DNA of 64,000 nucleotides from a bacterium. Lineage in GTDB: Bacteria; UBA8248. Below the pieces are notes generated by a model. The model was not told where the DNA came from and ran no database searches. It saw only the letters and a program-made list of their open reading frames with translations. The DNA lies in assembly GCA_965213685.1 (NCBI GenBank), contig CBDBZY010000045.1, forward strand, positions 24,684 through 88,683, written 5' to 3'. Position 1 is the stretch's first letter; every line of letters starts with the position of its first letter. The position numbers and the translations under genes are program-made. Of this stretch, positions 13,315-50,488 are shown piece by piece.

Positions 13315-13812
13315 TTGCGATTGAACCGCGAACAGGTGGAGGCGATGTACCGGCACGCGCGCGCGGCCTATCCCGATGAGTGTTGCGGCCTCATCACCGG
13401 CCCGCCGCCTGCGGAGGATGGGGGGCCGGACGCGCCCCTGCGCCTTTTCCCCTGCAGGAACGTCCAGGACGAGATGCGCGCGAAAGACCCGCAGGCCTAT
13501 CCCCGAACGGGGCGGCGCGCCTTTTTGATCGATCCGTTCGAATTCGAGCGCATCCTCCGGGAGGCGGAGGAGGCGGGCGAGGTGATTCGCGGGATATTCC
13601 ACAGCCACCCGGATGAGGACGCCTATTTCTCCCGGGAGGACAAGGATGCGGCGCTTCCCTTCGGGGACATCCCCTCGTTTCCGCATGCCGGACACATCGT
13701 CATGAGCGTGCGCGGAGGGGTGGTTTGCGGCGAGAAGGTGTTTTTTTGGGACGCGGGGCAGAAAGATTTCGTCCCGGGCGACCTGGAGGTGACGGAGGAA
13801 GCGGGCGGGTGA
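13315..13812 (+). CDS. JAB/MPN (Mec-type, M67) metallopeptidase
   Basis: AYPDECCGL and FHSHPDEDAYFSRED (JAMM HxH-x7-S-x2-D). TTG start. Confidence 0.92.
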   Translation: MRLNREQVEAMYRHARAAYPDECCGLITGPPPAEDGGPDAPLRLFPCRNVQDEMRAKDPQAYPRTGRRAFLIDPFEFERILREAEEAGEVIRGIFHSHPDEDAYFSREDKDAALPFGDIPSFPHAGHIVMSVRGGVVCGEKVFFWDAGQKDFVPGDLEVTEEAGG

Positions 13813-14660
13813 GCCGCGAGAGCGACCTCGCGCGTTCGCCGGATGAGGAGCAGGCCGCGCCCGCGGGCCCGTCCGGGGGCCGCGTGTCCGATGCGCAGTC
13901 TCTCGCGCGTTCATCGGCCCTTGTCCTGGGAGTCGGCGGCATCGGCTCGCCCGCGGCGCTGGCGCTCGCGGCATCCGGCGTGGGGCGGATCGGCGTGGTC
14001 GATCATGACAGGGTGGACCTCGGCAACCTGGCGCGTCAGATTCTCCACCGGACGGAGGACTTGGGCCGCGAGAAGGTGGATTCGGGCGCGGATTCCATCC
14101 GCAGGCTCTCCGCCCGGACGGCGGTGGACGCCATTCCCCGCAGGCTCACGCCCGCGAACGCCGCCGAAATCATCGCCCCCTACGATGTCGTCGTGGACGG
14201 CAGCGACAACCTGCTCTCGAAGCTCGCCCTCAACGACGCCTGCGCCGCATCCGGCAAGCCCTGGGTGATGGGGGGCGTGCTGCGGTTTTTCGGGCAGGCG
14301 ATGACCATTCTGCCGGGCAGGAGCGCATGTCTGCGGTGCCTGGTGGGCGAGGAGGGCGCGGGGGCGCGGGGGCTGGACTGCGGGGATGCGGGCGTCTTCG
14401 GCGCCGTGGCCGGTTTTGTGGGCATGGCGCAGGCGGCCGATGCGATCCGGGTTCTTCTGGGGCTGGAGCCGGCCTGGTCGAACAGGTTGATGACGGCTGA
14501 TTTTTGGAAAAATGCCTTCGGCGGCCTGCGGGTGGCGCGGAATGCGGATTGTCCCGCCTGCGCGCTTGCGAGGCGCCGGAGCGTGGAGGCCCCGATGGTC
14601 CGGGAAGCGTCCGGGGAAGGGATGCTGCAGGGACGCCTCATGGGAGGATGCCGCCGATGA
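13809..14660 (+). CDS. moeB: MoeB/ThiF adenylyltransferase (E1-like)
   Basis: GVGGIG P-loop, DRVDLGNLARQILH, DGSDN, CLRC...CPAC Zn motifs. GTG start overlaps the Mec stop. Confidence 0.88.
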   Translation: MSRESDLARSPDEEQAAPAGPSGGRVSDAQSLARSSALVLGVGGIGSPAALALAASGVGRIGVVDHDRVDLGNLARQILHRTEDLGREKVDSGADSIRRLSARTAVDAIPRRLTPANAAEIIAPYDVVVDGSDNLLSKLALNDACAASGKPWVMGGVLRFFGQAMTILPGRSACLRCLVGEEGAGARGLDCGDAGVFGAVAGFVGMAQAADAIRVLLGLEPAWSNRLMTADFWKNAFGGLRVARNADCPACALARRRSVEAPMVREASGEGMLQGRLMGGCRR

Positions 14661-15115
14661 AGATATCGACCAAGGGACGATACGCCGTGCTCGCCATGAT
14701 AGAGCTGGCGCGGCACTCGCAAACGCACCCGGTTCCCTTGCCCCAGATAGCCGGCAAGCTGGAAATCAGCCAGCACTACCTGGAGCAGCTGTTCGTGAAG
14801 ATGCGCCGGGCCTCGCTGGTGCGCAGCACGAGGGGGCCGGGAGGCGGCTACATCCTGGCGCGGCCCCCCTCCCGAATCAACATGCGCGACGTTCTGTTCG
14901 CGGTGGAGGAAACCGTCCAGCCGGTGGATTGCGGAGAGGCGCCGCCTTCCGTTCCGTGCCCGAACATCCGGGCGTGCGGAAGCCGCATTCTGTGGAAGAG
15001 GCTCGAGGATGCGATAGACAAGACGTTGCGGGAGACCACGCTGGAGGAGTTGAGCGCGCGCCCGGCCGGGGAGGGAGAGGGCGTCCGCCTGCCGAGTTTC
15101 CAGGTGAGCATCTAG
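14657..15115 (+). CDS. Rrf2-family transcriptional regulator (IscR/CymR-like, three Cys)
   Basis: MKISTKGRYA, YLEQLF, STRGPGGGYIL motifs and a C-x8-C-x5-C cluster. Confidence 0.92.
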   Translation: MKISTKGRYAVLAMIELARHSQTHPVPLPQIAGKLEISQHYLEQLFVKMRRASLVRSTRGPGGGYILARPPSRINMRDVLFAVEETVQPVDCGEAPPSVPCPNIRACGSRILWKRLEDAIDKTLRETTLEELSARPAGEGEGVRLPSFQVSI

Positions 15116-15144
15116 CGAACGGATCGTCGTCGGGGAGGAAGGAC

Positions 15145-16221
15145 ATGTCGTTTGAACCTGTGCGCGTCGCCTCGATGGGCCTGGGGCGATGGGCCAACGT
15201 GCTCGCCGACGCCGCGTTGCGCGGAGGAAAGATTCGGATCGTCTCCTGCTTCAGCCGAACGGCCGGGAAGCGGCGCGACTTCACGGAGCGCTACGGGACG
15301 CGGGAGGCGGAGAGTTTCGATGCGCTGTTGCGAGACGAGGAAATCGAGGCCGTCATCCTCACGACGCCGAACCACGCCCACAAAGAGCACATCGAGGCGC
15401 TGGCCGCCGCCGGCAAGCATGTCTATTGCGAAAAGCCCATCGCCCACTCCATGGAGCATGCGCGCGCCATCGTCCATGCGGTCGAGGCCGCCGGCGTCAG
15501 GCTCGCGGTAGGCCATAGCGCGCGCCGCCTCGCCGTCTCGAGGCGCATGAAGGCGCTGATCGACGAGGGGGCGATCGGGCGCGTCTCGATGAGCGAGAGC
15601 AATTTCTGCACCGAGCGCGGCCTGGAGCTGACGCCCGAGAAATGGCGTTCGAGCCGCGCGCTGAACCCCACGGGCGTGGTCATTCAGCTGTCCATCCACC
15701 ACGTCGACACGTTTCGCTACCTGCATGGCCCGGTGAAGACCGTCACCGCCAGGCTCAAGCGCATGTATGCGACCGAGGACGTGGAGGACGCCTCGATGAT
15801 GATTCTCGAGCATGAAAGCGGGGCACTCTCCTATGTGGGCGGCGGCTGGGCGTGTCCCTGGGCGTTTCACATGAACGTTCATGGCACGAAGGGAATCGCG
15901 CATTTTCGCATTACCGGCCAGCAGTGGCGGGACCCCTCGAAGGCACCCGATCCGATTCGCCTCCGGCTGGACAGGGAGCCGCTGGGCGCGGACGCCGTCT
16001 ACGACATGCCGGAGGGCGATATGTTCCGGGACGCACTCGATGATTTTGCCGACAGCGTCCGCACGGGCCGCACCCCCGAGGTGGACGGCAGGGTGGCCGA
16101 GGAGAACCTGGCCATCGTCTATGCGGCTGCTGAGAGCTCGCGCCTAGGCAGGACGGTGGAGTTGCGGGATCATCTCCAGGAAACGCTGAGATTGACCCCC
16201 GGGGGGAGGCGCGTCCGCTAG
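15145..16221 (+). CDS. Gfo/Idh/MocA-family oxidoreductase
   Basis: GLGRWA, TTPNHAH and GKHVYCEKP motifs. Confidence 0.9.
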   Translation: MSFEPVRVASMGLGRWANVLADAALRGGKIRIVSCFSRTAGKRRDFTERYGTREAESFDALLRDEEIEAVILTTPNHAHKEHIEALAAAGKHVYCEKPIAHSMEHARAIVHAVEAAGVRLAVGHSARRLAVSRRMKALIDEGAIGRVSMSESNFCTERGLELTPEKWRSSRALNPTGVVIQLSIHHVDTFRYLHGPVKTVTARLKRMYATEDVEDASMMILEHESGALSYVGGGWACPWAFHMNVHGTKGIAHFRITGQQWRDPSKAPDPIRLRLDREPLGADAVYDMPEGDMFRDALDDFADSVRTGRTPEVDGRVAEENLAIVYAAAESSRLGRTVELRDHLQETLRLTPGGRRVR

Positions 16222-26513: not shown

Positions 26514-27734
26514 TTGGCCCGCCTGCTCGAAAACGATTCCCTGACGCTACTGAAACAAGGCGGCGTTCCCGTGCCGGACTTCGAGGTTTGCGCCAGTGCG
26601 GACGAGGCGGCCCGCGCCCTCGCGCGCCTGGGCGGGCGCGTCGTCATCAAGGCGCTCGTGCCGGTCGGGAAGCGGGGCAGGGCGGGCGCGGTGAAGTTCG
26701 CCGCCTCGGCGGATGCGGCCCGCGCGCGCGCCGGCGCCATTCTGGGGATGGAGGTGCGGCGCTTCCCCGTGCGCCGTCTCATCGTGATGGAGGCGCTCGA
26801 CATCCGGCGCGAGATATTCTGCTCCATCTCCTTCGACGCGGGGAGGAAATGCCCGCTCATCCTCTTCAGCGCCGAGGGGGGCGTGGACGTCGAGGAGCTG
26901 GCCGAGAAGCAGCCTGACAAGCTTCTGGAATGGCCCGTGAACATCATGGAGGGGCTGGACGCCGGGGACGCCGTCCGTCTGGCGCAGAGCGCAGGACTCC
27001 CGGACGACCTCGCCGAACGGGTCGGGCGCGCCGTTCTGGCGATGTATCAGGTGTTCTGCGCCCGCGACTGCGAGATGGTGGAGGTGAACCCGCTGGCGGA
27101 GCTGGCCGATGGCCGCGTGGTGGCGGCGGCGGGCGTGGCGCAGATTGACGAGCAGGCGCTTTTTCGTCATCCGGACCTGGCGGCCATGCTGGGTGAGGAG
27201 GGGGGAAACGGCTGGCGACCGCTGACCCCGCTCGAGCGGCGGATGCGCGCCATCGACGCCATCGACCCCCACGTGGGCGCCATTCGCTTCAGCGAGCTCG
27301 ACGGCGACATCGGCTTCATGGTCACCGGCGGCGGCTATGGCCTCTCCAGCCTGGAGGCTCTCCTGGACCTCGGAGGAAGACCGGCCACCACGTTCGACAT
27401 CACGCCCGGCCGCTATGAGGAGAAGATGTGCGAGGCGGTCAAGGCGGTGCTCTCCAAGCCCGGCATCCGGGGGCTCGTGCTGGCGGGGAACGTGAGCAAC
27501 TTCACGCGGGTGGACGTCAAGGTGGCGGGAGTGGTTCGCGCCCTCCGGGAGGCGGGGCTGGATTACAACAAGTTTCCCGTCGTCGTCCGCTACGCCGGCC
27601 CGGGGGCCGAGGAGGCGCGGCGGCTCATCGCCCAGGTTCCGGGCGTGGAATGGCACGAGGAGGAGGCGTCGATAGAGGACGTCGCCTGTCGCATCGTGGC
27701 GCGCGCGTACGGGAGGAGGGGGGCCGCGAATTGA
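26514..27734 (+). CDS. Succinyl-CoA synthetase beta-like ATP-grasp CoA ligase subunit (divergent)
   Basis: VIKALVPVGKRGRAG, EGGVDVEE and EVNPL motifs. TTG start after GGAGGT. Confidence 0.82.
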   Translation: MARLLENDSLTLLKQGGVPVPDFEVCASADEAARALARLGGRVVIKALVPVGKRGRAGAVKFAASADAARARAGAILGMEVRRFPVRRLIVMEALDIRREIFCSISFDAGRKCPLILFSAEGGVDVEELAEKQPDKLLEWPVNIMEGLDAGDAVRLAQSAGLPDDLAERVGRAVLAMYQVFCARDCEMVEVNPLAELADGRVVAAAGVAQIDEQALFRHPDLAAMLGEEGGNGWRPLTPLERRMRAIDAIDPHVGAIRFSELDGDIGFMVTGGGYGLSSLEALLDLGGRPATTFDITPGRYEEKMCEAVKAVLSKPGIRGLVLAGNVSNFTRVDVKVAGVVRALREAGLDYNKFPVVVRYAGPGAEEARRLIAQVPGVEWHEEEASIEDVACRIVARAYGRRGAAN

Positions 27735-28666
27735 GCATTTTGCTGGACTCGGCGACGCGGGTGCTCGTGCAGGGGGTGACGGGGGCGGAAGCGCGGAGGC
27801 TACTGCCCACCATGACCTCCTATGGCACCCGCGTGGTGGCGGGCGTGTCTCCCGGCAAGGGGGGAGAGGCGGTGGACGGCGTGCCGGTGTATGACGCGGT
27901 GGAGGACGCGGTGCGCGCCCACGAGGCGGACCTCTCCGTGCTGTTCGTGCCGGCGCGCTTCGTGCGCGACGCCGCCCTGGAGGCGATAGAGGCGGGCGTG
28001 CCCACCATCCACATTCTGGCGGAGGGCGTGCCCCACCATGACGCTTGCGCACTGCTGGCGCGCGCGGCGGAGAGGGGCACCTTCGTCATCGGCCCCAACA
28101 GCCAGGGCATGGTGAGTCCGGGGAAGGCGAAGGTCGGCGGCACGGGGGGCGAGGTGCCGGACCTCATGTTCCGCCCGGGACCTGTGGGCGTGGTGAGCAG
28201 AAGCGGGGGGATGGGCGCCGAGATTTGCCTGTTTCTGACGCGCGCGGGCATCGGCCAGAGCACCTATGTGGCCCTGGGCGGCGACCTGCTCATCGGCGCC
28301 TCTTTTGTCGAAATGCTCGCCTTGTTCGAGAACGACCCCGAGACCCGGGCCGTTGTCCTGTTCGGAGAACCCGGCACGGACAGGGAGGAGGCGGCGGCCC
28401 GCTTCATCGCCTCGGGCGGGTTCACCAAGCCTGCCGTGGCCATGATACCCGGCGAGTTTTGGGAGACGTCCCCCACGCCGGCGAGCGTGAGCCATACCGG
28501 CGCGCTCATCGAGCGGGGCCGGGGCGCGCCCTCCCGGAAGAAGAAGATGCTGCGGGAGGCCGGCGTCTCGGTGGCCGAGAAATTCTCCGACATCGTGCCC
28601 CTGGTCGAACGGGCGCTGCGGGAAGCGCCGGGCAAAGCGGCCGAACCGGACCCTGCGCCGATTTGA
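27731..28666 (+). CDS. Succinyl-CoA synthetase alpha-like CoA-binding subunit
   Basis: VLVQGVTG, IGPNSQG, SRSGG and the phospho-His motif SHTGA. Confidence 0.85.
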   Translation: MSILLDSATRVLVQGVTGAEARRLLPTMTSYGTRVVAGVSPGKGGEAVDGVPVYDAVEDAVRAHEADLSVLFVPARFVRDAALEAIEAGVPTIHILAEGVPHHDACALLARAAERGTFVIGPNSQGMVSPGKAKVGGTGGEVPDLMFRPGPVGVVSRSGGMGAEICLFLTRAGIGQSTYVALGGDLLIGASFVEMLALFENDPETRAVVLFGEPGTDREEAAARFIASGGFTKPAVAMIPGEFWETSPTPASVSHTGALIERGRGAPSRKKKMLREAGVSVAEKFSDIVPLVERALREAPGKAAEPDPAPI

Positions 28667-28846
28667 CCCCTTGTCGGACGCAAGCGCCGCCGCCGGAAGG
28701 GAGGGGATTTATTTGCGCGCGCGCTCCCGCCGACCTCGCCGGCCCTCCCCGGGCGCGCCTCCCCACGCCGTTTCCGCCTCCCTTGGGGGGATGGCGCGCG
28801 GGGCGCATCGCCCGCCCTGCAGGGCCAGTCCCCGGAATTTTTGGGA

Positions 28847-28875
28847 TTGCCCCGGATATCCCGAAACGATATAAT
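28847..28875 (+). promoter_or_regulatory. Sigma70 promoter for the first peptide unit
   Basis: TTGCCC (28847-52), N17, TATAAT (28870-75); predicted +1 near 28882. Confidence 0.65.
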
Positions 28876-28967
28876 CGGGTTGGTTGCGGGGACGTTGCGT
28901 CCGGTTCTTGGCGCGCCGCACAACGAGGGAATTCACATCTCGTCGTAGCAAACCGGAGGGTGCGAGA

Positions 28968-29135
28968 ATGAATGAATCGGCTGAGAAAGACAAAGTGGTT
29001 GCGAAGGAGACCGAAGAGAAGGATCGGGAGTTGAGCGACAAGGAGGTGGATGAGGCCAAGGTGTCGGGAGGAACGGACAGCTCGATAGCGGATACGGGAA
29101 GAGCCCAGGGCCAGAGGTGGGGTCACAGGATATAG
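28968..29135 (+). CDS. Double-glycine-leader peptide precursor 1 (55 aa)
   Basis: MNESAEKDKVVAKETEEKDRELSDKEVDEAKVSGG|TDSSIADTGRAQGQRWGHRI, with GGAGG RBS. Confidence 0.75.
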   Translation: MNESAEKDKVVAKETEEKDRELSDKEVDEAKVSGGTDSSIADTGRAQGQRWGHRI

Positions 29136-29338
29136 CCCGGGGGGAGTGCATCGCCCCGGGAGGGCAGGGCGGACGTTGGACGCACGGGTCGGCGTCTTCA
29201 TATCATGGTGCCCCCTCCGTTCGCGTCCAGATGATCGGGCTGGTTGTCGCGGTGATGTGTGCCTGGTTCGTAGGCGCACCGCACACAGGCGGGGAAATGT
29301 GAATCCACAGTCGTTGCAATAAACCGGAGGATGCGAGG

Positions 29339-29518
29339 ATGAATGAATCGGCTGCGAAGGAGACCGAAGGGAAGGATCGGGAGTTGAGCGACGAGGAGAT
29401 GGAGGAGGCCCAGGTGTCGGGAGGAACGGGCGACTCGGCGTCGGAGGGAAAACTCCCGGATGAGGATGCGAACAAATTCAATCAGCAGCACTACCTCAAC
29501 AGGGTCCCTCGGCCGTAG
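29339..29518 (+). CDS. Double-glycine-leader peptide precursor 2 (59 aa; not in the ORF track)
   Basis: Manual translation MNESAAKETEGKDRELSDEEMEEAQVSGG|TGDSASEGKLPDEDANKFNQQHYLNRVPRP, with GGAGG RBS. Confidence 0.78.
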   Translation: MNESAAKETEGKDRELSDEEMEEAQVSGGTGDSASEGKLPDEDANKFNQQHYLNRVPRP

Positions 29519-29721
29519 CCCTGGGGGGGGGGGGAGCACCGCTCCTCGGGACGGGCCCTGGCGGGTATTGTGAGGGATCGCCCTGTAGCCCTCCCGAAAC
29601 GCGCGATATAGCGATACGGAGAGGCTGGTTGCGGGGACGCGCGGAGTCCGCTTCGTGTTGTGCCGCGCACAGCACGGGGAAATGAATCCGGAGTCGTCGC
29701 GGCAAACCGGAGGATGCGGGA

Positions 29722-29904
29722 ATGAATGAATCGGCTACGAAGGAGACCGGGGGGAAGGATCGGGAGTTGAGCGACGAGGAGATGGATGAGGCCCAGGTGT
29801 CGGGAGGAACGGGCAACTCGGCGTCGGAGGGAAAACTCTCGGCGGAGGAGGCGGAAAGACTCCGGAACCATGGCTGGCGCAACGAGGTTTGGGGGACGGA
29901 ATGA
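29722..29904 (+). CDS. Double-glycine-leader peptide precursor 3 (60 aa)
   Basis: MNESATKETGGKDRELSDEEMDEAQVSGG|TGNSASEGKLSAEEAERLRNHGWRNEVWGTE, with GGAGG RBS. Confidence 0.78.
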   Translation: MNESATKETGGKDRELSDEEMDEAQVSGGTGNSASEGKLSAEEAERLRNHGWRNEVWGTE

Positions 29905-30088
29905 CGTTGCGGTAAAATTCGCCCCGCGTATCTTCTATCTATCTCCGCGCGTCAAGTTTCGCTCGCATCCGGTGTCCCTCCCGCGCGACCCGGTTTCCCC
30001 TTCTTTCTCCTCTCCGGCCATCGCGCCCGCGTGGGTTTGTTTCACAATCGCCCCGGCGGGGATGCCGCTCCTCAGTTCAGCATCTTCA

Positions 30089-30844
30089 TCAGATCATCGT
30101 CGCCCCGCCGTTCACGTCGAGGGTGACGCCGTTGATGTAGGCCGCTTCCTTCGAGCAAAGAAAGACGACCGCCTCGGCAATCTCCCGGGGTTCCGAAAGC
30201 CTGCCCGCCGGAGTGGATTGTTGGATGTAGGCGATGCGCTCGGGCGTTCGGATGCCAATCGTTCTCGGCGTTCGCACGTTGGCCGGCGCCACAGCGTTGA
30301 CGGTGATCCCGTGCGGCCCCAGTTCGCGCGCCGCCTGGCGGGTGAGGCCCAGCACCCCTGCCTTGGCGGCCGTGTAGTGCGGCGGGTTCGGGTTCACGCC
30401 GCTGCGCGCGGCCATGCTCGAGAGGGTGACGACGCGCCCGTACCGCGCCGCCACCATCAGGGGAGCGACGGCCTTGAGGAGGTAGAACATCGACTTCAGG
30501 TTCGAGTCCACCACGCCGTCCCAGGCTTCGACCGGGCAGTCGAGAAGGCTCACGTAGCGGGGGAATCCGCCCGCGCTGTGCACGAGGGCGTCCACCCGCC
30601 CCGCCTGCGCATGCGCTTCCCGCACGGCGGCGCTGGTCGCCTCCCAGTCGGTGAGGTCGACGACGGCGCAGCGGGCGCGGCTGCCGCTCTCGTTGATGGA
30701 TTGCGCGACCGCCGCCGCACCCTCCCCGTTCACGTCCATCACGGTGACCGCCGCTCCCTCCCGCGCGAGAATTCTGGCGGTGGCCTCCCCGATGCCCGTC
30801 GCAGCGCCCGTGACGATGGCGCTTTGCCCCTCAAAGCCGCTCAT
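30089..30844 (-). CDS. SDR family oxidoreductase
   Basis: TGAATGIG, YTAAK and NAVAP motifs. Confidence 0.92.
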   Translation of the reverse strand: MSGFEGQSAIVTGAATGIGEATARILAREGAAVTVMDVNGEGAAAVAQSINESGSRARCAVVDLTDWEATSAAVREAHAQAGRVDALVHSAGGFPRYVSLLDCPVEAWDGVVDSNLKSMFYLLKAVAPLMVAARYGRVVTLSSMAARSGVNPNPPHYTAAKAGVLGLTRQAARELGPHGITVNAVAPANVRTPRTIGIRTPERIAYIQQSTPAGRLSEPREIAEAVVFLCSKEAAYINGVTLDVNGGATMI

Positions 30845-30927
30845 GCGCGCCTCCTATTGCGGAAAGGCTGCGCGCGCGCGCGACGACCCCGGCAGGGGAC
30901 CGCCGCCGCGCCCGCGCGCGTCGGATT

Positions 30928-31941
30928 CTATCCCTCCTGCATCTTCAGGATGCGGTTGATGAGGTCGATGCCGCCCACCTGGTCGGCGAATTTCCGGTGA
31001 ACGGGCTTCACCGCCGCGCGGAAGGGCTTGAGGTCGGGCGTCGCGATTTTGAGGCCTTTTTCGGCGAACCCCTTCATGATGTCCTTCTCGTTCTCCTCCG
31101 CATAGGCGTTCGCCCAGGCTATCGTGTCCCGGGCGGCGGAGAGGACTGCCTTTTGCATGCCCTTGGGCAGCTTGGCGTAGTATTTGTCGTTGATGATGAG
31201 CGCACCCGCCACGAGCTGGTGCCGCGTGATGGAGAGGTATTTCTGCACTTCGTAGAGTTTCATCGCCCACGCCCAGCTCGAGCCGCCGTCGTGGCCGTCC
31301 ACCGTCCTGGTGCTCAGCGCGCTGAACAGCTCGGTCGGCGCCATGCCGATGGTGCTGCCGCCCAGGGACTTGTATGTCTGGACCATGATGGGGTTTTTGG
31401 CGATCCGCATCCGCAGGTCCCCCAGGTCGGCGGGCTTCGTGATGGGGTGCTTGCTGTTCATCATGTTGCGGAAGCCCGTGGCGACGAAGCCGAGGATGCG
31501 GATGCCCGATTTCTTGCGAAAGTTCTCGGCGATGCTCCGGCCGATGTCGCTGTCGAACACCTTGACGGCGCCTTTGAAGCTGCCGAACATGAAGGGCAGG
31601 GTGAAGATGTCCAGCCGTCTGTCGAAGGCCGTGATGTTGTTCGAGGCCACCAGCTGCATCTGCACCGATCCGAGCTGCACCTTCTTCGCGGCGACGCGGT
31701 CCTTGCCGAGCTGGGAGGAGGGGAATATCTGGATGTCGATCTCCCCCTTGGAGTAGACCTGCAGGTTCTTGCGCATGGTCAGGGCCGAGGCCTGGTAGAG
31801 GAGCTCCGGCTTGGGCGGGTTGTTGTGGGCGAACTTCATGACGTATTTGGCGGCCTCGGCCCGGGGAGCCGCGAGGCTGATCAGACCGGCGGCGAGGATG
31901 ATGCCCGCCAGTGCCCGGAAACGCCTTTTCCAGTGTCGCAT
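30928..31941 (-). CDS. dctP: TRAP transporter substrate-binding protein DctP
   Basis: Signal peptide, IFPSSQLG, GFRNM and LYEVQKY motifs. Confidence 0.9.
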   Translation of the reverse strand: MRHWKRRFRALAGIILAAGLISLAAPRAEAAKYVMKFAHNNPPKPELLYQASALTMRKNLQVYSKGEIDIQIFPSSQLGKDRVAAKKVQLGSVQMQLVASNNITAFDRRLDIFTLPFMFGSFKGAVKVFDSDIGRSIAENFRKKSGIRILGFVATGFRNMMNSKHPITKPADLGDLRMRIAKNPIMVQTYKSLGGSTIGMAPTELFSALSTRTVDGHDGGSSWAWAMKLYEVQKYLSITRHQLVAGALIINDKYYAKLPKGMQKAVLSAARDTIAWANAYAEENEKDIMKGFAEKGLKIATPDLKPFRAAVKPVHRKFADQVGGIDLINRILKMQEG

Positions 31942-31979
31942 GGGTTGCCTCCTTCTCCGTATAGAGGGTTTTTTGTCCC

Positions 31980-33266
31980 TCACCTGCCGAGTATCAGGTT
32001 CGGCAGCACGAGGGAGATGCTGGGGAAATACGCCAGAATGAGAATGCACAGGAACATCGTCAGGATGAAGGGCAGGACGGCCTTCGCGATGGCCCCGAGC
32101 GTGGTGTCCGCGATGCCCATCGCCACGAACAGGCTGGTGCCCAGGGGCGGCGTCAGGTATCCGATCTCGCAGTTCACCACGAACACGATCCCGAAGTGGA
32201 TGGGGTCGATGCCCACCGCCTTGATGACGGGCAGGAACATCGGCGTGAGGATGATCACCTGCGCCATGGTGTTGAGCCACATGCCCACGAAGGTGAGGAA
32301 GAGGCTGATGAGGATGAGAATGAGGAAGGGGGAGGTCGTAACCCCCTGGATGAACGCGGTCACCAGCTGGGGAATCTGGTGAATGGTGATGAGCTCGCCA
32401 AAGGCGAGCGAGGCGCCCCAGATGATGGCGATGGTCCCGGTGACGAGGGCTGCGATTTCCAGGCATTCGCGCGTCTTGCGCCACGTGAGCTCCCGATAGA
32501 CGAACATGCCCACCGCCCAGCCGTATAAGACGGCGATGACGGCGCTCTCCGTCGGCGTGACGAAGCCGCCGTAGATGCCGCCGATGATGACGCCGGGGGC
32601 CAGGAGCGCCCAGCGCGCCGCCCAGATGGTGCGCAGCGTCCGGGAGACGGAGAAGGGCTCCGCGTCGGACTCCACGGTCATGAAGCGCGCCATGATGGAG
32701 GCGCAGCCCATCAGCATGAGCCCGAGCATGACGCCGGGCAGAAAGCCCGCGATGAACAGGCGGGTGACCGACTGATCGGCGCTGACGCCATAGACGATGA
32801 GGGTGATGCTCGGGGGGATGAGGATGCCGAGCGTCCCGCCGCAGGCGGAGACGGCGCCCGAGTAGTTCTTGTCGTATTGGCGGCGGAGCATGGTGGGGAT
32901 CATGAGTCCGCCGACGGCGGCCGTCGTGGCGGGGCCCGAACCCGAAATCGCCGAGAAGAGCATGCACGCCAGGATGGTGACGTGGGCGAGGCCGCCCTGG
33001 ACGTTGCCCACGAAGCAGTCGGCCACCGAGATCAGCCTTTTGCTGATGCCCCCCTTCTCCATCAGCGCGCCGGCGAGCAGGAACATGGGCACGGCGATGA
33101 AGGGGAACTTGTCCAGCCCGTCGTAATAGGAGAGCGCCAGGCTCTCGAAGCGCTCCCCGGTCGCGAAATACACGAGGATGGAGGAGACCCCCAGGGCGAC
33201 GCCCACGGGCACGCGGATGAAGAGGAACAGCGCCAGGGAGCCGAGCAGCAGCAGGGGCATGTTCAT
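31980..33266 (-). CDS. dctM: TRAP transporter large permease DctM
   Basis: AVPMFLLAG, SAISGS, LIPPSI and DPIHFG..TPPLG motifs. Confidence 0.93.
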   Translation of the reverse strand: MNMPLLLLGSLALFLFIRVPVGVALGVSSILVYFATGERFESLALSYYDGLDKFPFIAVPMFLLAGALMEKGGISKRLISVADCFVGNVQGGLAHVTILACMLFSAISGSGPATTAAVGGLMIPTMLRRQYDKNYSGAVSACGGTLGILIPPSITLIVYGVSADQSVTRLFIAGFLPGVMLGLMLMGCASIMARFMTVESDAEPFSVSRTLRTIWAARWALLAPGVIIGGIYGGFVTPTESAVIAVLYGWAVGMFVYRELTWRKTRECLEIAALVTGTIAIIWGASLAFGELITIHQIPQLVTAFIQGVTTSPFLILILISLFLTFVGMWLNTMAQVIILTPMFLPVIKAVGIDPIHFGIVFVVNCEIGYLTPPLGTSLFVAMGIADTTLGAIAKAVLPFILTMFLCILILAYFPSISLVLPNLILGR

Positions 33267-38396: not shown

Positions 38397-40317
38397 ATGT
38401 CGGAGGTGCCCATCGTCAAGGAGTGCGGGATGGAAGCGGACGAGTTCGACGACCTCGAGGAGGCCGACCATCCGGAGTTGCCGGAAACCGATTTCGGCAG
38501 GTTGGCCGAGAATGTTCTCTCCCGGCGCGGATTTCTGAATGACACCGCCGCGTTCGCCGCGAGTGCGTTCGTCATGAGCGCAGGCGGAATCTCGCCCCTG
38601 GCGGCTTTCGCCGCCCCCAACCGGTTCGGGTTCGACCCCGTCCCCGCCAACGACCTCGACACGATCACCGTCCCCAAGGGGTATCGTTGGCACGTGGTCG
38701 CCAAATGGGGAGAGCCGATGTGGAAGCACTCGGTCGCGTTCGACCACGCGACGCGCGGCACGGGCGCGAGCCAGGAGTTCGCCTTCGGCGACAACAACGA
38801 TGGAATGGCGCTGTTCCTCCACGGAGACCGGAACATCCTCGCTGTCAACAACGAATACGTGAACCTTGACGTCATCTACGGCGGCAAGGGCAGGGGCAGG
38901 CCCGAGAACGCCGACGACGTGCGCAAGGGCAAGGCCGCGCACGGGGTGTCCATCGTGGAGATCGAGCAGAACAACGGCACCTGGTCCATCGTCAAGGATT
39001 CCCCCTACAACCGGAAGATCACGCCCGACACCCCGATGGAGATCACCGGGCCCGCCCGCGGGCACGACCTTCTCCGCACGGCCGCCGACCCCGCCGGCGT
39101 CAGGAGCCTGGGGACCTGGAACAACTGCGGCAACGGCGTCACCCCGTGGGGCACCTTCCTCACCTGCGAGGAGAACTTCCACGGCTACTTCTCCTCGAGC
39201 GACCCCGATATCGAGGTCGGCCCCGCGTTCAAGCGATACAGCGTAGGCACCCGGGATCGGGGGTATGCGTGGGTGATGGTGGATGAGCGGTTCGACATCG
39301 CCAAGCACCCCAACGAGCCGAACCGCGTCGGCTACATCGTCGAGATCGACCCCCTCGACCCCGCTTCCACGCCCAAGAAGCGCACCGCCCTGGGACGCTG
39401 CAAGCATGAGAACGCGGAGGTTGTCCTCGCGGCGAACGGACAGGTGGTCGTCTACATGGGCGACGACGAGCGGGGCGAGTTCATCTACAAGTTCGTGAGC
39501 GCGGGGCGCTATGTCGAGGGTGGCGACAACGCCGACCTCCTGGAGGCGGGCAAGCTGTTCGCCGCGAAGTTCGCCGACGGCGGCCGGGGCGAGTGGGTAG
39601 AGCTGACCTCGGAATCCACGGGCATGGCCTCCCTGGCGGAAATCTGCGTCCACACCCGCATGGCGGCCTCGGCGGTGAAGGCGACCACCATGGACCGCGC
39701 GGAATGGGTGGCGGCGAACCCCAGGAAGGCTGAGGTCTACTGCTGCCTCACCAACAACAAGAACCGCGGCAAGAAGCCCAACAAGGGCGGCGACCCGACG
39801 CCCGTCGGCGGGCCGAACCCCCGCAAGGGCAACATCTATGGCCAGATCGTGCGGTGGACGCCGGACGGGGGCGATCACCTCGCGACCGCCTTCTCCTGGG
39901 ACTTGTTCGTGGTTGCGGGCAACCCCGTTGTGCACACCGGCCCCAACGCGGGTTCGAAGAACATCGCGCGGGACAACATGTTCAACTCGCCTGACGGTCT
40001 CGCGTTCGACCGCAACGGCATGTTGTGGATACAGACCGACGGCAACTACTCCAACGCCAAGGGGTTCGCGGGACAGGGGAACAACCAGATGCTGGTGGGC
40101 GACCCCGTAACGGGCGAGATTCGCCGCTTTCTCGTCGGCCCCAGACAGTGCGAGGTCACCGGCATGGCCTGGAGCCCGGATGGCAAAACCCTGTTCGTCG
40201 GCATCCAGCATCCGGGCGAGAAGGGCGGCGACAGCCACTTCCCCCGACGGCGGGGACACGACCCCCCGCTCGTCCGTCATCGCCGTGACGCGCGAAGACG
40301 GGGGGCGCATCGGCTAG
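38397..40317 (+). CDS. phoX: PhoX-family alkaline phosphatase (Tat-exported), with a +1 frameshift near the 3' end
   Basis: SRRGFL Tat motif, NNDG, NCGNG.TPWGTFLTCEEN, MDRAEW, SPDGL, QHPG. Removing one C at 40241-45 restores HFPDGGDTTPRSSVIAVTREDGGRIG* (TAG 40315-17). Confidence 0.9.
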
Positions 40318-40527
40318 CACGACAATCCCTCGCTGTGGCTTCCCGCACGTCACGGGGAGGGCGACGCCGCGCCTTCTCCGGGACGTGCGGGTGCGGTGTG
40401 CGCGGGGGCGTTCCGGGAAAAGCCCCCGCCGCCCTTGCGGAGGATGCGCCTTTTTTCGCAAACTGGCGTCCGCGCGGAGGAGGGAAGCGCCGAACTGCAG
40501 AACACGCCCCCACGGGACGCACTCCCC

Positions 40528-41628
40528 ATGAGCACGAAGCGGAAGGCCATCGAATACGCCTGGTATCTGCCCTCGAACCAAAGGGGCGACGCCACGCGGC
40601 TCGGCACGGGCGAGGTGGAGATTCCTCCGGAAATCGACTACCTCGTCCACGTGACGCGGACGGCAGAGGCGAGCGGTCTCACGAACATGCTCATTCCCTG
40701 CAACACTTCCTGCTCGGACGGCTGGCTACTCGCCGCCGCCATCGCCCGAGAGACGGAGCGCATCCGGTTTTGCGTCGCCATCCGCCCCGGCCTCACCACG
40801 CCGACCTTCGCCGTCCAGCAGGCGAACACGCTCGACTTCATCTCCGGCGGCAGGCTCACGGTCAACGTCGTGCCGGGCGGCTCCTCCACGGACGCGCGGC
40901 GCTACGGCGACTGGGCGGACCACGACGCGCGCTATGCCCGGGCCGACGAGTTTCTGGAGGTCGTGCGCGCCTTCTGGGCGGAGGAGGGAAGGGTGAACCA
41001 TGAGGGCGCGCACTACCGGGTGGAGGATGGCTTCGTCTTTCCCGGCCCCGCGCGCAAGGGCGGCCCGCCGCTTTATTTCGGCGGCAGCTCGCCCGCTGCC
41101 AAAAGAGTCATCGCCAGGCACGCCGACGTCTTCCTGAAGTGGGGCGAGCCCCCCTGGCAGATAGCGGAAGAGTATCGGGAGGTGCGGAAGATGGCGCGCG
41201 AGGAACACGGGCGCGACCTCGGGCTGGGCGTGCGGTTTCACATCCTGGTGCGCGAGGACGACGCGCAGGCCAAGCGCGAGGCCGAGTCCATCATCGCGGG
41301 CAGGGTCTCCTACGGCGAGAGCTCCTCCGTCACCGGCTCCGTCGGCGGCGAGGTGGAATCCGTCTCCCAGCAGCGCATGAACGCCATGACGGCGGAGGGG
41401 AGGCTCTGGCACGGCCCGGCGCTGTTCTCCGGCGTCAACCTCGTGCGCCAGGGGGCGGGCACCATGCTCGTGGGCAGCCCGCAGGTCGTGGCCGACGCCA
41501 TGCGCGAATACGTCGCCGTCGGCGCCACCACCTTCATCCTCTCCGGCTGGCCGCACGATGCGGAGGCCCGGAACTTCGGCGAATACCTCCTGCCCCTGCT
41601 CCCGAGGACGGCGCCGCCCCAGCCCTGA
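40528..41628 (+). CDS. LLM-class flavin-dependent monooxygenase (SsuD-like)
   Basis: AIRPG, LDFISGGRL, RYARADEFL and LYFGGSS motifs. Confidence 0.88.
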   Translation: MSTKRKAIEYAWYLPSNQRGDATRLGTGEVEIPPEIDYLVHVTRTAEASGLTNMLIPCNTSCSDGWLLAAAIARETERIRFCVAIRPGLTTPTFAVQQANTLDFISGGRLTVNVVPGGSSTDARRYGDWADHDARYARADEFLEVVRAFWAEEGRVNHEGAHYRVEDGFVFPGPARKGGPPLYFGGSSPAAKRVIARHADVFLKWGEPPWQIAEEYREVRKMAREEHGRDLGLGVRFHILVREDDAQAKREAESIIAGRVSYGESSSVTGSVGGEVESVSQQRMNAMTAEGRLWHGPALFSGVNLVRQGAGTMLVGSPQVVADAMREYVAVGATTFILSGWPHDAEARNFGEYLLPLLPRTAPPQP

Positions 41629-48272: not shown

Positions 48273-49271
48273 ATGAGGGACCGTCTCGGCTTCTGGCTTC
48301 TCACGTTCGCGGACATTTCGTTCCAGGGCATGGGAGAGGTCTCCAGGCTTGGCGAGGAATTGGGGTATCATCGCGTCTACACCACCGAATCCCTCACGGA
48401 CACCCTGGCCATCAATCAGCTGATGGCGACCTATACGTCCCGGATGGAGATCGGCAGTTCGGTCGCCATCATTTATTTGCGCCACGCCTCCCTCGCCGCC
48501 CAGGGCGCCGTGGCGATCAGCGAAATCTCCGGCGGCCGCTATATCCTGGGTCTCGGTCTGGGGCATCCCCCCCGGATTCGGGCGATGGGGATAGAGCCGG
48601 GAAGTCCCCTCGAGGACATGCGCCAATATGTCCGGGAGGTGAGAGGGGTATGGAGGGGGGAGTCCGTGTATCCCCTGCCCGTCCAGACTTATCAGGGGAA
48701 AGCGCTGGCGTTCAGGCGCTCGAAGCACCCGATTCGGATATATATGGCTGCCGTCGGCCCGAAGATGACGGCGCTTGGCGGGGAAATCGCCGACGGGCTG
48801 TTGCCTTACATGGTCCCGCTCTCGAGGATGGGCGCCTACGTGGAGGCGAGGGACATCGGAGCGAAGCGCGCCGGCAGAAATCCCCGGGACATACAGATCG
48901 ACCTGGGAATCCATACGTTTTTGTGCGATGATCTCGCTTTGGCCAGAGAGACCGCCCGTCAAACCCTCACGTATTGGCTGGGGCTTCCCGCATACAATCG
49001 CTCGATTCGCGAAAGCGGCTATGAGGAGGAGGCGGAGCGCATGCGAGCGGCCTTTGAGCGCGGCGATCAGAAGGCTCTGCGGGAAGGGATCACCGACGCC
49101 ATCATCGACGAGTTTTGCCTCGTTGGCCCGCCAGAGAGGTGCCGGGAGCGCCTGGCCGCCTTTGTCTCCGCCGGGGTGGACATGCCGGTTTTGATGACGG
49201 ACCCGGTGCCGGCGGGCGAAAGCTATCAAGAGGCGGTGGAGCGCACGCTAACAGGGCTGGCCCCGAGGTAG
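48273..49271 (+). CDS. LLM-class (luciferase-like, flavin/F420) oxidoreductase
   Basis: EISGGRYILGLG, MAAVGPKM..LGGEIADG and VGPPERCRERL motifs. Confidence 0.85.
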   Translation: MRDRLGFWLLTFADISFQGMGEVSRLGEELGYHRVYTTESLTDTLAINQLMATYTSRMEIGSSVAIIYLRHASLAAQGAVAISEISGGRYILGLGLGHPPRIRAMGIEPGSPLEDMRQYVREVRGVWRGESVYPLPVQTYQGKALAFRRSKHPIRIYMAAVGPKMTALGGEIADGLLPYMVPLSRMGAYVEARDIGAKRAGRNPRDIQIDLGIHTFLCDDLALARETARQTLTYWLGLPAYNRSIRESGYEEEAERMRAAFERGDQKALREGITDAIIDEFCLVGPPERCRERLAAFVSAGVDMPVLMTDPVPAGESYQEAVERTLTGLAPR

Positions 49272-49273
49272 GC

Positions 49274-50488
49274 ATGAACACAACCCCCGCGAATACGGGA
49301 AAGCCGTCCATGCGCACCTTGCCCTGGACGGGAACGGGCCTCATATTTTTCGCGCATTTTGTGGTGGATAGCCAGGCGAATTTCTTTGCGCCCCTCGTTC
49401 CCCTGCTCCAGGAAAAACTGGGCATGGGCATTACGACGGTCGGATTCCTGATTTCCCTCCAGGCCGTGAGCGGCTCCATCTCGCAACCCGTCACCGCCCT
49501 CGTCGTCGACAGGTGGCCCTGGCTGCCGTGGCTCGCCGTGGGCCTGCTCGGGAGTTCCATCGCCTTTACGGCGATCGGATGGGTGACGAGCGTATACGGC
49601 CTGGCCGTCGCACTCACCACGGGAGGAATTCTTTTCGGGCTCTGTCATCCGGACATGGCCGCGCGCGCGGGCCGACTGAGCTCCGAGCACGCCGGCTTCA
49701 TCGTCAGCCTGTTCGTGACGGGGGGGAGGCTGGGTTTCGCGATTGGTCCGCTGATTGCCATCTTTCTGGCGGAAACGCTGGGCATGGAGCATTTGTGGGT
49801 GTTTGTCTTCGTGGCCCTGCTCGCCATGTCGGGCGTGAAATGGGGAATGCCCGCTCCTCCCCGGAGAGGGAGAAAAGACGGGAAACGAGGGGATCGGGAA
49901 GGGTTGGCGGCGGCGCTGAAATCCGTTCGCGCTCCGATGATGCTCCTGTTCGGCATCGCCATCGTCCGGGGGACGACCCTGGCGAATTTGGGGGGATTTT
50001 TGCCCGCGGTGTTTTTTGACAAGGGTCTGGGGCTTTGGCGAGGCGGCATGGCCAACGCGGTCATTTTTTTCTCGGGCGCCATCGGCGTGATGCTCGGGGG
50101 CATCATGGGCGACAGATACGGCAAGCCCAAGGTCATCGCCATCGGCGTCGGATGCGCCCTGGTCGGGATGCTGGCGTTTCTGCTCTCGCCCCTGGAGTGG
50201 GCGTATGCCTCTCTCGCCATCATCGGCGCGGGGGTTTTCGTGCCCATGGGGGTCTCCGTCGCGTTGGCGCAGGAATACCTGCCCGAACACAGGGGATTCG
50301 CAAGTTCCCTGATGCTGGGCGGCGGCTGGATATTGGCCGGCTTGACGGCGATTCCCGTTTCCTTGCTCGGAGAGAAAATCGGGATGCTGAACGCTTTCTG
50401 GGTGATTCCGTGCGTCCTGCTTGTGGGCCTCGTTCTGGCTTTGGTGCTGGAAAGGCAACAAAGCCCCAGGCCCGAGCCGGCGGTTTGA
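49274..50488 (+). CDS. MFS transporter (Fsr-like)
   Basis: HFVVD, QP, HP, GGRLGFAIGP and DRYGKP motifs; about 12 TM segments. Confidence 0.85.
   Translation: MNTTPANTGKPSMRTLPWTGTGLIFFAHFVVDSQANFFAPLVPLLQEKLGMGITTVGFLISLQAVSGSISQPVTALVVDRWPWLPWLAVGLLGSSIAFTAIGWVTSVYGLAVALTTGGILFGLCHPDMAARAGRLSSEHAGFIVSLFVTGGRLGFAIGPLIAIFLAETLGMEHLWVFVFVALLAMSGVKWGMPAPPRRGRKDGKRGDREGLAAALKSVRAPMMLLFGIAIVRGTTLANLGGFLPAVFFDKGLGLWRGGMANAVIFFSGAIGVMLGGIMGDRYGKPKVIAIGVGCALVGMLAFLLSPLEWAYASLAIIGAGVFVPMGVSVALAQEYLPEHRGFASSLMLGGGWILAGLTAIPVSLLGEKIGMLNAFWVIPCVLLVGLVLALVLERQQSPRPEPAV

What the first reader, a model, noticed from the sequence alone, without database searches (positions are those of the whole stretch)
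28968..29904. Orphan array of three RiPP-like precursors: conserved GG leader, hypervariable core
Seen: three 55-60 aa ORFs with strong RBSs share MNESA..KET..KDRELSD(E/K)E(M/V)(D/E)EA(Q/K)VSGG-T and then diverge: TDSSIADTGRAQGQRWGHRI, TGDSASEGKLPDEDANKFNQQHYLNRVPRP, TGNSASEGKLSAEEAERLRNHGWRNEVWGTE. The middle gene is missing from the ORF track. Cores have no Cys, start Ser/Thr-rich and end with His/aromatic clusters (WGH, HYL, HGW..W). Known: ELSxxEL..VxGG is the leader signature cleaved by C39-peptidase ABC exporters (bacteriocin, Nif11 and NHLP precursors), and a constant leader with variable core is typical of RiPP libraries. Caveat: the motif has two extra residues versus the canonical spacing. 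No exporter or maturase is in the window. Inference: an undescribed secreted peptide family processed in trans.
Basis: partly seen in the sequence, partly recalled or inferred. Interest (0 to 1): 0.82.

Follow-up and report, generated by a model that had tools for sequence, protein, structure and literature searches.

The report
Tandem orphan double-glycine-leader peptide genes
Three neighbouring mini-genes encode small peptides with a shared export-type leader and very different tails; they are probably cut and secreted by a transporter encoded elsewhere in the same bacterium, which makes them a new but modest addition to a well-known kind of secreted peptide.

Summary
Three tandem small ORFs (28968-29135, 29339-29518, 29722-29904, + strand) share an acidic leader ending in VSGG-T and have divergent, Cys-free cores rich in Trp, His and Arg. 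Each ORF has its own GGAGG ribosome-binding site and a conserved upstream stretch of about 100 nt. They look coding: all indels are in frame, and 5 of 6 between-strain SNPs inside the ORFs are synonymous.

The family is nearly orphan. It matches no Pfam, NCBIfam or Rfam model and was found in none of 50 other genomes of the phylum. In billions of proteins there is one relative (P0006).

P0006 links the window peptides to a 62-aa paralogue (pep62) on contig C3. pep62 lies next to the assembly's only C39-peptidase ABC exporter, an NHLP-type HlyD/ABC1/ABC2 set. Export in trans is therefore plausible.

Three points count against the reading:
- The leader carries two extra residues, which puts acidic residues at the canonical -7 and -12 hydrophobic positions.
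- ABC2 reads in three frames in this assembly.
- No known maturase was found, so "RiPP" is unsupported.

Verdict: a new small family of double-glycine-leader secreted peptides with a +2 leader variant. Cleavage, export and function are unproven.

The parts
28847..28875 (+). Promoter-like site of unit 1 (TTGCCC, 17 nt, TATAAT)
   Evidence: Consensus scan, 10 of 12 matches. This is a pattern match only.
28876..28967 (+). Conserved upstream stretch (probable 5' UTR) of unit 1, ending in the GGAGG ribosome-binding site
   Evidence: It aligns with the corresponding stretches of units 2 and 3. It has no Rfam match and no significant fold, z = +1.01.
28968..29135 (+). Peptide gene 1, 55 aa: 35-aa leader ending VSGG, 20-aa core starting with T and ending RWGHRI
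   Evidence: It has a 6-codon in-frame insert in the leader relative to copies 2 and 3. SNPs in other runs: 2 synonymous and 1 D37G.
29232..29338 (+). Conserved upstream stretch with RBS of unit 2
   Evidence: No SNP was listed here in X4 or X5, whereas 6 were listed in the 96-nt spacer 29136-29231.
29339..29518 (+). Peptide gene 2, 59 aa: 29-aa leader ending VSGG, 30-aa core
   Evidence: One synonymous SNP in X5. Part of it is present without differences in a contig of X6 from a third study.
29617..29721 (+). Conserved upstream stretch with RBS of unit 3
   Evidence: Fold z = -1.85, not compelling.
29722..29904 (+). Peptide gene 3, 60 aa: 29-aa leader ending VSGG, 31-aa core
   Evidence: Two synonymous SNPs in X5. 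88% nucleotide identity to unit 2 over 180 nt (D1).
27428..28666 (+). Left flank: succinyl-CoA-ligase-like alpha subunit. Not part of the system; it marks one edge of the variable slot.
   Evidence: Pfam CoA_binding and Succ_CoA_lig. Synteny is kept in 11 of 11 relatives' loci examined.
30089..30844 (-). Right flank: short-chain dehydrogenase. Not part of the system; it marks the other edge of the variable slot.
   Evidence: Pfam adh_short_C2. Orthologues of 78-85% identity are in 21 of 22 genus relatives.

Best explanation
The array is a lineage-specific tandem triplication of a small gene that encodes a double-glycine-leader peptide. Each copy is probably transcribed from its own promoter. 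The inferred pathway is as follows. The 29-35-aa acidic leader is recognised by the C39 peptidase domain of the bacterium's single peptidase-containing ABC transporter. That transporter is the NHLP-type ABC1 with ABC2 and HlyD on contig C3, about 3 Mb of assembly away. The precursor is cut after VSGG, and a 20-31-aa hydrophilic, Cys-free, Trp/His/Arg-containing peptide is exported. It is most likely unmodified or modified by nothing now recognisable. The upstream stretch and leader are kept alike, by gene conversion or constraint, while the cores diversify.

Shown: the genes, their coding signature, their homology to the exporter-adjacent pep62, and the exporter with an intact catalytic triad.

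Inferred: cleavage, export and an extracellular role. A signal peptide or a narrow antagonistic peptide are the two usual roles of this kind.
For: - Leader. It ends in VSGG with Val at -4 and carries the (R)EL-x3-E-[MV] half of the Gram-negative double-glycine consensus quoted in PMC3140520 (passages; sequences).
- Exporter. The assembly has one C39 hit, in ABC1 = TIGR03796 at 1021 bits against a cut-off of 853. HlyD = TIGR03794 scores 244 bits against 156. The Gln/Cys/His/Asp columns of the C39 domain are invariant in 9 of 9 aligned sequences, including this one.
- Exporter-adjacent peptides. Two GG-leader peptides lie divergently beside the exporter, pep62 and a 116-aa weak NHLP-like one.
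- The bridge. P0006, a 60-aa protein from an unrelated 1.68-Mb contig, has the window-type leader with the same two extra residues. It is 59% identical to ORF1 over 29 aa (E 6e-9) and 68% identical to ORF3 over 22 aa (E 4e-8). It also has the pep62 core tail (47% over 62 aa, E 1e-13). Window peptides and pep62 are therefore one family, and the +2 leader is kept in a second organism.
- Count of candidates. A regex scan of 176,657 frames found only these 5 small GG peptides in the contigs of 60% GC or more, plus 1 hit at the end of a 410-aa frame.
- Same organism. C45 and C3 both belong to the 65% GC bacterium: GC content and orthologues in genus relatives.
- Coding signature and presence in other runs.
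Against: - Register. Counting from GG, the window leaders have Glu at -7, Asp at -12, Met/Val at -9 and Leu at -14. [quoted passage not shown] Charged replacements at -4 or -7 and most changes at -12 abolished cleavage (PMC6363468, passages).
- ABC2 (TIGR03797) reads in three frames in this assembly, with shifts at a T8 and a G5 run. It is one open frame in G022 and G008. This is either a sequencing error or a broken gene.
- The cores are hydrophilic. From my own knowledge, this is unlike membrane-active unmodified bacteriocins.
- There is no direct evidence of transcription, cleavage or export.
- The profile comparison of the window family with pep62 alone is weak: hhalign E 0.0029 over 17 columns.
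Confidence: 0.55

Rival explanations
1. RiPP precursor library. The peptides are exported as above, but the cores are first modified by a maturase encoded in trans, possibly of an unrecognised family. The modification might act on the recurring aromatic-x-Asn/His site near the C-terminus.
For: The pattern of constant leader and hypervariable core resembles prochlorosin-type libraries, which are Nif11-family precursors modified by one promiscuous enzyme (abstract of PMC10783134). An aromatic residue followed by x-N/H/D lies near the C-terminus in 6 of 6 family cores. Read, these are WGH, YLN, WRN, WHN, WHN and WND. pep62 and P0006 share an identical 14-residue core tail across organisms.
Against: No maturase lies in the window or beside the exporter, where the neighbours are DUF1302 and DUF1329. 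YcaO gave 0 matches. SPASM gave 1 match of 23.7 bits, under the 27-bit cut-off. LanC gave 0 matches, but the control rang nowhere, so that result is uninformative. The cores have no Cys. The core motif was read by eye from 6 related sequences and is not a statistical result.
Confidence: 0.2
2. Small acidic cytoplasmic proteins that merely descend from a double-glycine-leader gene. The two-residue insertion has uncoupled them from the exporter, and they now do something else or are decaying.
For: The canonical -7 and -12 positions are acidic. The genes lie far from the exporter among metabolic genes. The cores show pN above pS, which also fits relaxed constraint.
Against: Between strains, 5 of 6 SNPs in the ORFs are synonymous. 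All three frames and ribosome-binding sites are intact. The same +2 leader is kept in P0006 together with a conserved core.
Confidence: 0.17
3. Not protein-coding. On this reading it is a repeated regulatory or small-RNA element whose open frames are accidental in GC-rich DNA.
For: GC-rich DNA gives many spurious ORFs, and 34 ORFs of at least 30 aa overlap 28000-31000. The upstream stretch is as conserved as the leader.
Against: The indels are in frame, GGAGG is kept at a fixed distance from ATG, the SNP pattern favours third positions, and there is a protein-level homologue in another organism. There is no Rfam match. The folds are no better than shuffles, with z = +1.01, -0.35 and -1.85.
Confidence: 0.05

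Closest known systems
Double-glycine-leader peptides exported by peptidase-containing ABC transporters (PCAT/AMS; C39 domain), including class II bacteriocins, microcins and peptide pheromones
   Same: The leader is short and acidic and ends in Gly-Gly, with Val at -4 and an EL-x3-E-[MV] block. One cognate-type exporter with HlyD is in the genome, and a paralogue lies beside it.
   Different: Two extra residues lie between the E-[MV] block and V-x-G-G, so the -7 and -12 positions are acidic. The cores are hydrophilic. No immunity-like gene was recognised, though this was not formally tested. The genes are remote from the exporter.
NHLP (TIGR03793) and Nif11 (PF07862) leader precursor families with the NHLM_micro ABC1/ABC2/HlyD export set
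   Same: The exporter is of exactly this type (TIGR03794, TIGR03796, TIGR03797). The last 15 or so leader residues resemble Nif11 or generic ELSDEEL..VSGGTG leaders. Precursors encoded away from the cluster are known for these families (PMC3140520, passage).
   Different: The window peptides match neither model. Their leader is 29-35 aa, whereas from my own knowledge the NHLP/Nif11 leader is a folded domain of about 70-80 aa. No YcaO, LanM or radical SAM partner was found.
Prochlorosin-type precursor libraries
   Same: Several paralogous precursors have a near-identical leader and unrelated cores, encoded apart from the processing genes (abstract of PMC10783134).
   Different: There are only three copies, no Cys, no LanM-type enzyme detected and no Nif11 domain.

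Membership tests
Double-glycine (GG) leader / PCAT substrate | Gly at -2 and Gly/Ala/Ser at -1 | tested here: met
   VSGG is invariant in 3 of 3 window peptides and in pep62 and P0006.
Double-glycine (GG) leader / PCAT substrate | Hydrophobic residue at -4 | tested here: met
   Val at -4 in all copies. The requirement is taken from PMC6363468.
Double-glycine (GG) leader / PCAT substrate | Glu(-8)-Leu/Ile(-7) and Leu(-12), the consensus L-x3-E-L ... x2-[IV]-x-G-G | tested here: not met
   The L-x3-E-[MV] block is present but lies two residues further from GG. Position -7 is Glu, -12 is Asp, -9 is Met/Val and -14 is Leu. Consensus. pep62 and pep116 do meet the canonical spacing.
Double-glycine (GG) leader / PCAT substrate | A C39-peptidase ABC transporter in the same genome | tested here: met
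   One PF03412 hit, 126 bits, on contig C3. It is TIGR03796 at 1021 bits, with HlyD TIGR03794, and the catalytic columns are intact. ABC2 reads in three frames.
Double-glycine (GG) leader / PCAT substrate | Cleavage after GG and export | not testable with these tools
   This needs biochemistry or peptidomics.
NHLP leader (TIGR03793) / Nif11 leader (PF07862) | Match to the family model | tested here: not met
   No Pfam or NCBIfam hit up to E = 10 for leaders of the 3 peptides. The only hits were two sub-threshold Pfam matches in the core of ORF3. pep116 on C3 scores 30.1 bits against a cut-off of 50.9.
RiPP (post-translationally modified peptide) | A modifying enzyme encoded with the precursor or exporter, or of a known class elsewhere in the genome | tested here: not met
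   Window flanks are CoA ligase, SDR and TRAP transporter genes. Exporter flanks are an ABC ATPase, DUF1302 and DUF1329. YcaO gave 0 matches and SPASM gave none over the cut-off. The LanC search was uninformative because the control was silent. An unknown enzyme class cannot be excluded.
Unmodified class II bacteriocin / microcin | Adjacent immunity gene and a hydrophobic or Gly-rich membrane-active core (features recalled from my own knowledge, not from a call) | tested here: inconclusive
   The cores are charged and hydrophilic by inspection. No other credible gene lies between 28667 and 30088. No transmembrane prediction was run.

The most novel reading that the evidence does not exclude
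The +2 leader (L-S-x-x-E-[LMV], four residues, V-S-G-G) is a functional second register for recognition by a C39 domain. It marks an undescribed secreted-peptide family whose otherwise free-running cores keep an aromatic-x-Asn/His site near the C-terminus. That site could be the target of a still unrecognised maturase, for instance a cyclophane-type cross-link as in radical-SAM triceptides, or it could be a receptor-binding determinant of a diversifying signal system.
Probability: 0.12. Interest if true: 0.7.

Novelty: new variant of a known kind. Interest (0 to 1): 0.4.

Why it matters
If the C39 domain cuts these leaders, the accepted spacing rule for double-glycine leaders (-4, -7, -12) has a natural exception. 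Motif-based genome mining then misses such precursors; the canonical regex found none of the three here. The array would also be a compact natural example of leader homogenisation with core diversification outside cyanobacteria, in a small and little-studied phylum. If the leaders are not cut, the array shows how secreted-peptide genes decay or are re-used. Either way the result is of specialist interest and changes no larger picture.

Tried and rejected
- Rfam with permissive thresholds on 27000-32000 gave no match.
- The upstream stretches were tested as a structured RNA. The RNAalifold consensus is weak: covariation term -0.99, and 3 of 26 pairs have double changes among only 3 sequences. 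Single folds are no better than shuffles. Rejected as a riboswitch-like element.
- A sigma-54 promoter was considered by eye and dropped because the spacing does not fit.
- Homologue searches that found only the window's own peptides: 3 of 54 candidates, all own; 2 own plus P0004. P0004 is a 3670-aa repeat protein matched 29 times over 19 profile positions. I judged it spurious after reading it.
- Pattern scans of genome contigs (187 stretches, none confirmed) and of metagenome contigs (586 and 179 stretches, none confirmed) found nothing.
That was a poor use of the scan.
- In 60 relatives, the matches at E up to 1 all lie inside long frames, and the best has E = 0.006. I take them as chance.
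- Regions upstream of the exporter in 8 relatives' loci and downstream of it in 2 held no peptide of this family.
- Complex prediction with the C39 domain and the leader of peptide 2 gave no verdict: score 0.31 against a mark of 0.32. It is not evidence either way.
- The ESM Atlas gave no usable hit.
- The look-up of sequencing runs listed no RNA holder, so nothing can be said on expression.
- The Pfam SHOCT-like hit (E 0.0089, 16 bits against a cut-off of 27) and the zf-HC2 hit in the core of ORF3 were judged chance.
- Supplementary files of papers were not consulted. The supplementary tables of PMC3140520 and the figure supplements of PMC6363468 may list leaders with unusual spacing that I could not see.

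Full report
WHAT IS THERE. The + strand between a succinyl-CoA-ligase-like alpha-subunit gene (ends at 28666) and a convergent short-chain dehydrogenase gene (30089-30844, - strand) holds three small ORFs. The three proteins share 24 invariant columns. All of these lie in the N-terminal part, M-N-E-S-A ... K-E-T ... K-D-R-E-L-S-D.E..E-A.V-S-G-G-T, plus one Ser. The repeat unit is more than the ORF. About 100 nt upstream of each ATG is alignable, including A-A-A-C-C-G-G-A-G-G followed by 8 nt and ATG. Repeat families show 84-90% identity with spacings of 353-383 nt. Promoter-like hexamers precede units 1 and 2 (pattern match only).

IS IT CODING.
- The length differences between copies are an 18-nt insert in leader 1 and 3-nt multiples in the cores.
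- GC3 is 0.70-0.77 and GC2 is 0.38-0.49, as in neighbouring real genes.
- Contigs of public runs carry the array. X1 has no difference and is possibly the source sample. X4 is from the same study. X5 is from a second study. X6, from a third study, carries part of unit 2.
- Of the 6 differences inside the ORFs, 5 are synonymous third-position changes and 1 is D37G in core 1. By contrast, 6 differences fall in the 96-nt spacer 29136-29231.
- A protein-level relative exists in another organism (see "The bridge" below).
I take the genes as real. No RNA run was listed, so expression is unknown.

LEADER VERSUS CORE. Between paralogues the leader has pS 0-0.06 and pN 0.04-0.09. The core has pS 0.22-0.31 and pN 0.38-0.55. 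Even synonymous sites are four- to five-fold more alike in the leader, and the upstream stretch is alike too. This means the 5' halves are homogenised by gene conversion or nucleotide-level constraint, or the cores were exchanged. Simple recent duplication does not explain it. Core alignments are poor, so pN above pS should not be read as proof of positive selection.

HOW ALONE IT STANDS.
- No Pfam or NCBIfam family matched the leaders up to E = 10. The only hits were two sub-threshold Pfam matches in core 3. Rfam gave no match.
- A word-seeded profile search of 5.8 billion proteins returned only the three peptides themselves.
- An exhaustive HMMER search of 1.84 billion representatives returned two of them plus one spurious repeat protein.
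- DNA-pattern scans of 185,579 species genomes and of JGI metagenomes confirmed nothing.
- In 60 relatives there was no credible hit. With a wider family profile, 0 of the 50 other genomes of the phylum held here matched at E up to 0.01.
- The relatives are the right ones. The only bacterial 16S in the assembly lies on a 65.5% GC contig and is 97-98% identical to those of the genus.

THE SLOT. The order CoA-ligase alpha, gap, dehydrogenase, DctP is kept in 11 of 11 relatives' loci examined. The gap is 105-1080 nt there against 1422 nt here. In relatives it holds either nothing or an unrelated coiled-coil membrane protein. The array is therefore a lineage-specific occupant of a variable intergenic slot among metabolic genes. 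It is not part of a conserved operon.

THE ASSEMBLY. The assembly is a mixture: 49 contigs of at least 60% GC sum to 3.07 Mb, the genus range being 2.9-4.6 Mb, and 22 contigs under 60% GC sum to 4.90 Mb. The window contig (64% GC) and contig C3 (66% GC) both belong to the high-GC bacterium. Their genes have close orthologues in the genus.

THE EXPORTER. The assembly has one C39 peptidase match. It lies in a 731-aa protein that scores 1021 bits on TIGR03796 (NHLP-family export ABC1; cut-off 853). It is preceded by an HlyD-type adaptor (TIGR03794; 244 bits against 156) and followed by ABC2 (TIGR03797). The Gln, Cys, His and Asp columns of the peptidase domain are invariant across 9 sequences, including this one. 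ABC2 reads in three frames, with the shifts at a T8 and a G5 run. It is a single frame in the two closest relatives. I cannot tell a sequencing error from a real defect.

Two small genes lie divergently upstream of HlyD:
- pep116 is a 116-aa peptide with a weak NHLP-leader match (30 bits, under the cut-off) and a canonical E-L-S-E-A-E-L-D-S-V-A-G-G site, followed by a Trp-rich 23-aa core.
- pep62 is a 62-aa peptide with a canonical S-D-E-E-L-G-E-V-S-G-G site.
No modifying enzyme is in this cluster. The downstream genes are DUF1302 and DUF1329.

THE BRIDGE. A profile of the three window peptides plus pep62 recovered P0006, a 60-aa protein from an unrelated 1.68-Mb contig (E 1.8e-6 against 5.8 billion sequences). 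P0006 has the window-type leader including the same two extra residues, D-E-A-K-V-S-G-G-T as in ORF1. It is 59% identical to ORF1 over 29 ungapped residues (E 6e-9) and 68% identical to ORF3 over 22 residues (E 4e-8). Its core ends in the same 14 residues as pep62 (47% over 62 aa, E 1e-13) (E-values are for single comparisons). The window peptides, pep62 and P0006 are therefore one family. Both leader spacings occur within it, and the +2 form is kept in a second organism on a conserved core. A regex scan of all 176,657 frames of the assembly found only these five small double-glycine candidates in the high-GC contigs.

THE DIFFICULTY. The Gram-negative consensus quoted in PMC3140520 (passage read) is M(R/K)ELX3E(I/L)X2(I/V)XG(G/A). 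[quoted passage not shown] It reports loss of cleavage when -4 or -7 is made charged and for most changes at -12. The window leaders read R-E-L-x3-E-[MV]-x4-V-x-G-G. Counted from GG they therefore have Glu at -7 and Asp at -12, with the hydrophobic residues at -9 and -14. One defining feature of the family is thus tested and not met. The peptides work like, and descend from, double-glycine leaders, but whether this C39 domain accepts the shifted register is open. A complex prediction gave no verdict and is not used.

RiPP OR NOT. Nothing supports modification. The cores have no Cys, and there is no enzyme gene near the array or the exporter. YcaO gave no match and SPASM gave none over the cut-off. 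The LanC search was uninformative. An aromatic residue followed by x-N/H/D stands near the C-terminus of all six family cores (read by eye). That is the only hint of a shared site. It could as well be a binding determinant, and it is not a statistical result.

MOST LIKELY MECHANISM. Each unit is transcribed on its own. The precursor's leader docks on the C39 domain of ABC1 and the chain is cut after VSGG. The 20-31-aa hydrophilic core then leaves through ABC1/ABC2, HlyD and an outer-membrane partner. The genes, the homology and the exporter are shown; the rest is inferred. Confidence is 0.55. The rivals are the same export with an unknown modification (0.20), exporter-uncoupled cytoplasmic mini-proteins (0.17) and non-coding repeats (0.05).

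COMPARISON AND NOVELTY. The kind is well known: double-glycine-leader peptides served in trans by a PCAT, with a constant leader and variable cores. Three things are new. The sequence family matches no model and has six members in all searched data. The leader register is shifted by two residues. The setting is a small phylum. I rate it a new variant of a known kind, with interest 0.4.

Noticed in passing
whole assembly G000 (window = C45:24684-88683): The assembly is a mixture. 49 contigs of at least 60% GC total 3.07 Mb and carry the only bacterial 16S found. 22 contigs of 33-54% GC total 4.90 Mb, among them contigs of 1.6 and 0.8 Mb. Reported contamination is only 3.7%. Some low-GC frames show simple Gly/Lys/Arg repeats. 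The origin of the low-GC part was not determined, because the eukaryotic SSU search failed twice.
   Followed up: partly
L025 11366-14307 (G000:C3:57365-60306): The ABC2 gene (TIGR03797) of the exporter reads in three frames, with shifts at a T8 and a G5 homopolymer. Its orthologues in G022 and G008 are single open frames of about 975 aa. This is either an assembly error or a pseudogene.
   Followed up: partly
L025 6211-6558 (-) (G000:C3): A 116-aa peptide beside the exporter has a sub-threshold NHLP-leader match (30.1 bits against a cut-off of 50.9), a canonical double-glycine site and a 23-aa core with three Trp.
   Followed up: partly
L029, L031, L033, L034, L035, L038 (relatives' gap between the CoA ligase and dehydrogenase genes): In several genus relatives the slot that holds the peptide array here holds a gene for a 109-238-aa protein with an N-terminal hydrophobic stretch and a coiled-coil-like part. 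In L034 and L038 this protein has tandem G-S-L-K-S-D-V-type repeats. In L030, L036, L037 and L039 the gap is only 105-271 nt.
   Followed up: no
L055 2529-2801 (-) (G002, beside a second NHLP-type exporter): A 90-aa NHLP-like precursor ends only three residues (I-Y-Y) after an A-G-A site, which would be an unusually short core. It was not checked against the family model.
   Followed up: no
window 13725-16221, 38397-41628 and 48273-50488: These are pairs or triplets of overlapping same-strand ORFs in different frames, all with high GC3. They could be further frameshifts of the kind seen in ABC2, or GC-rich shadow frames.
   Followed up: no
window 29519-29531: A run of 12 G lies directly after the stop of peptide gene 2. 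It is reproduced without gaps in the X1 contig. In X5 a contig ends at 29531, with unlike letters behind (table 7).
   Followed up: no
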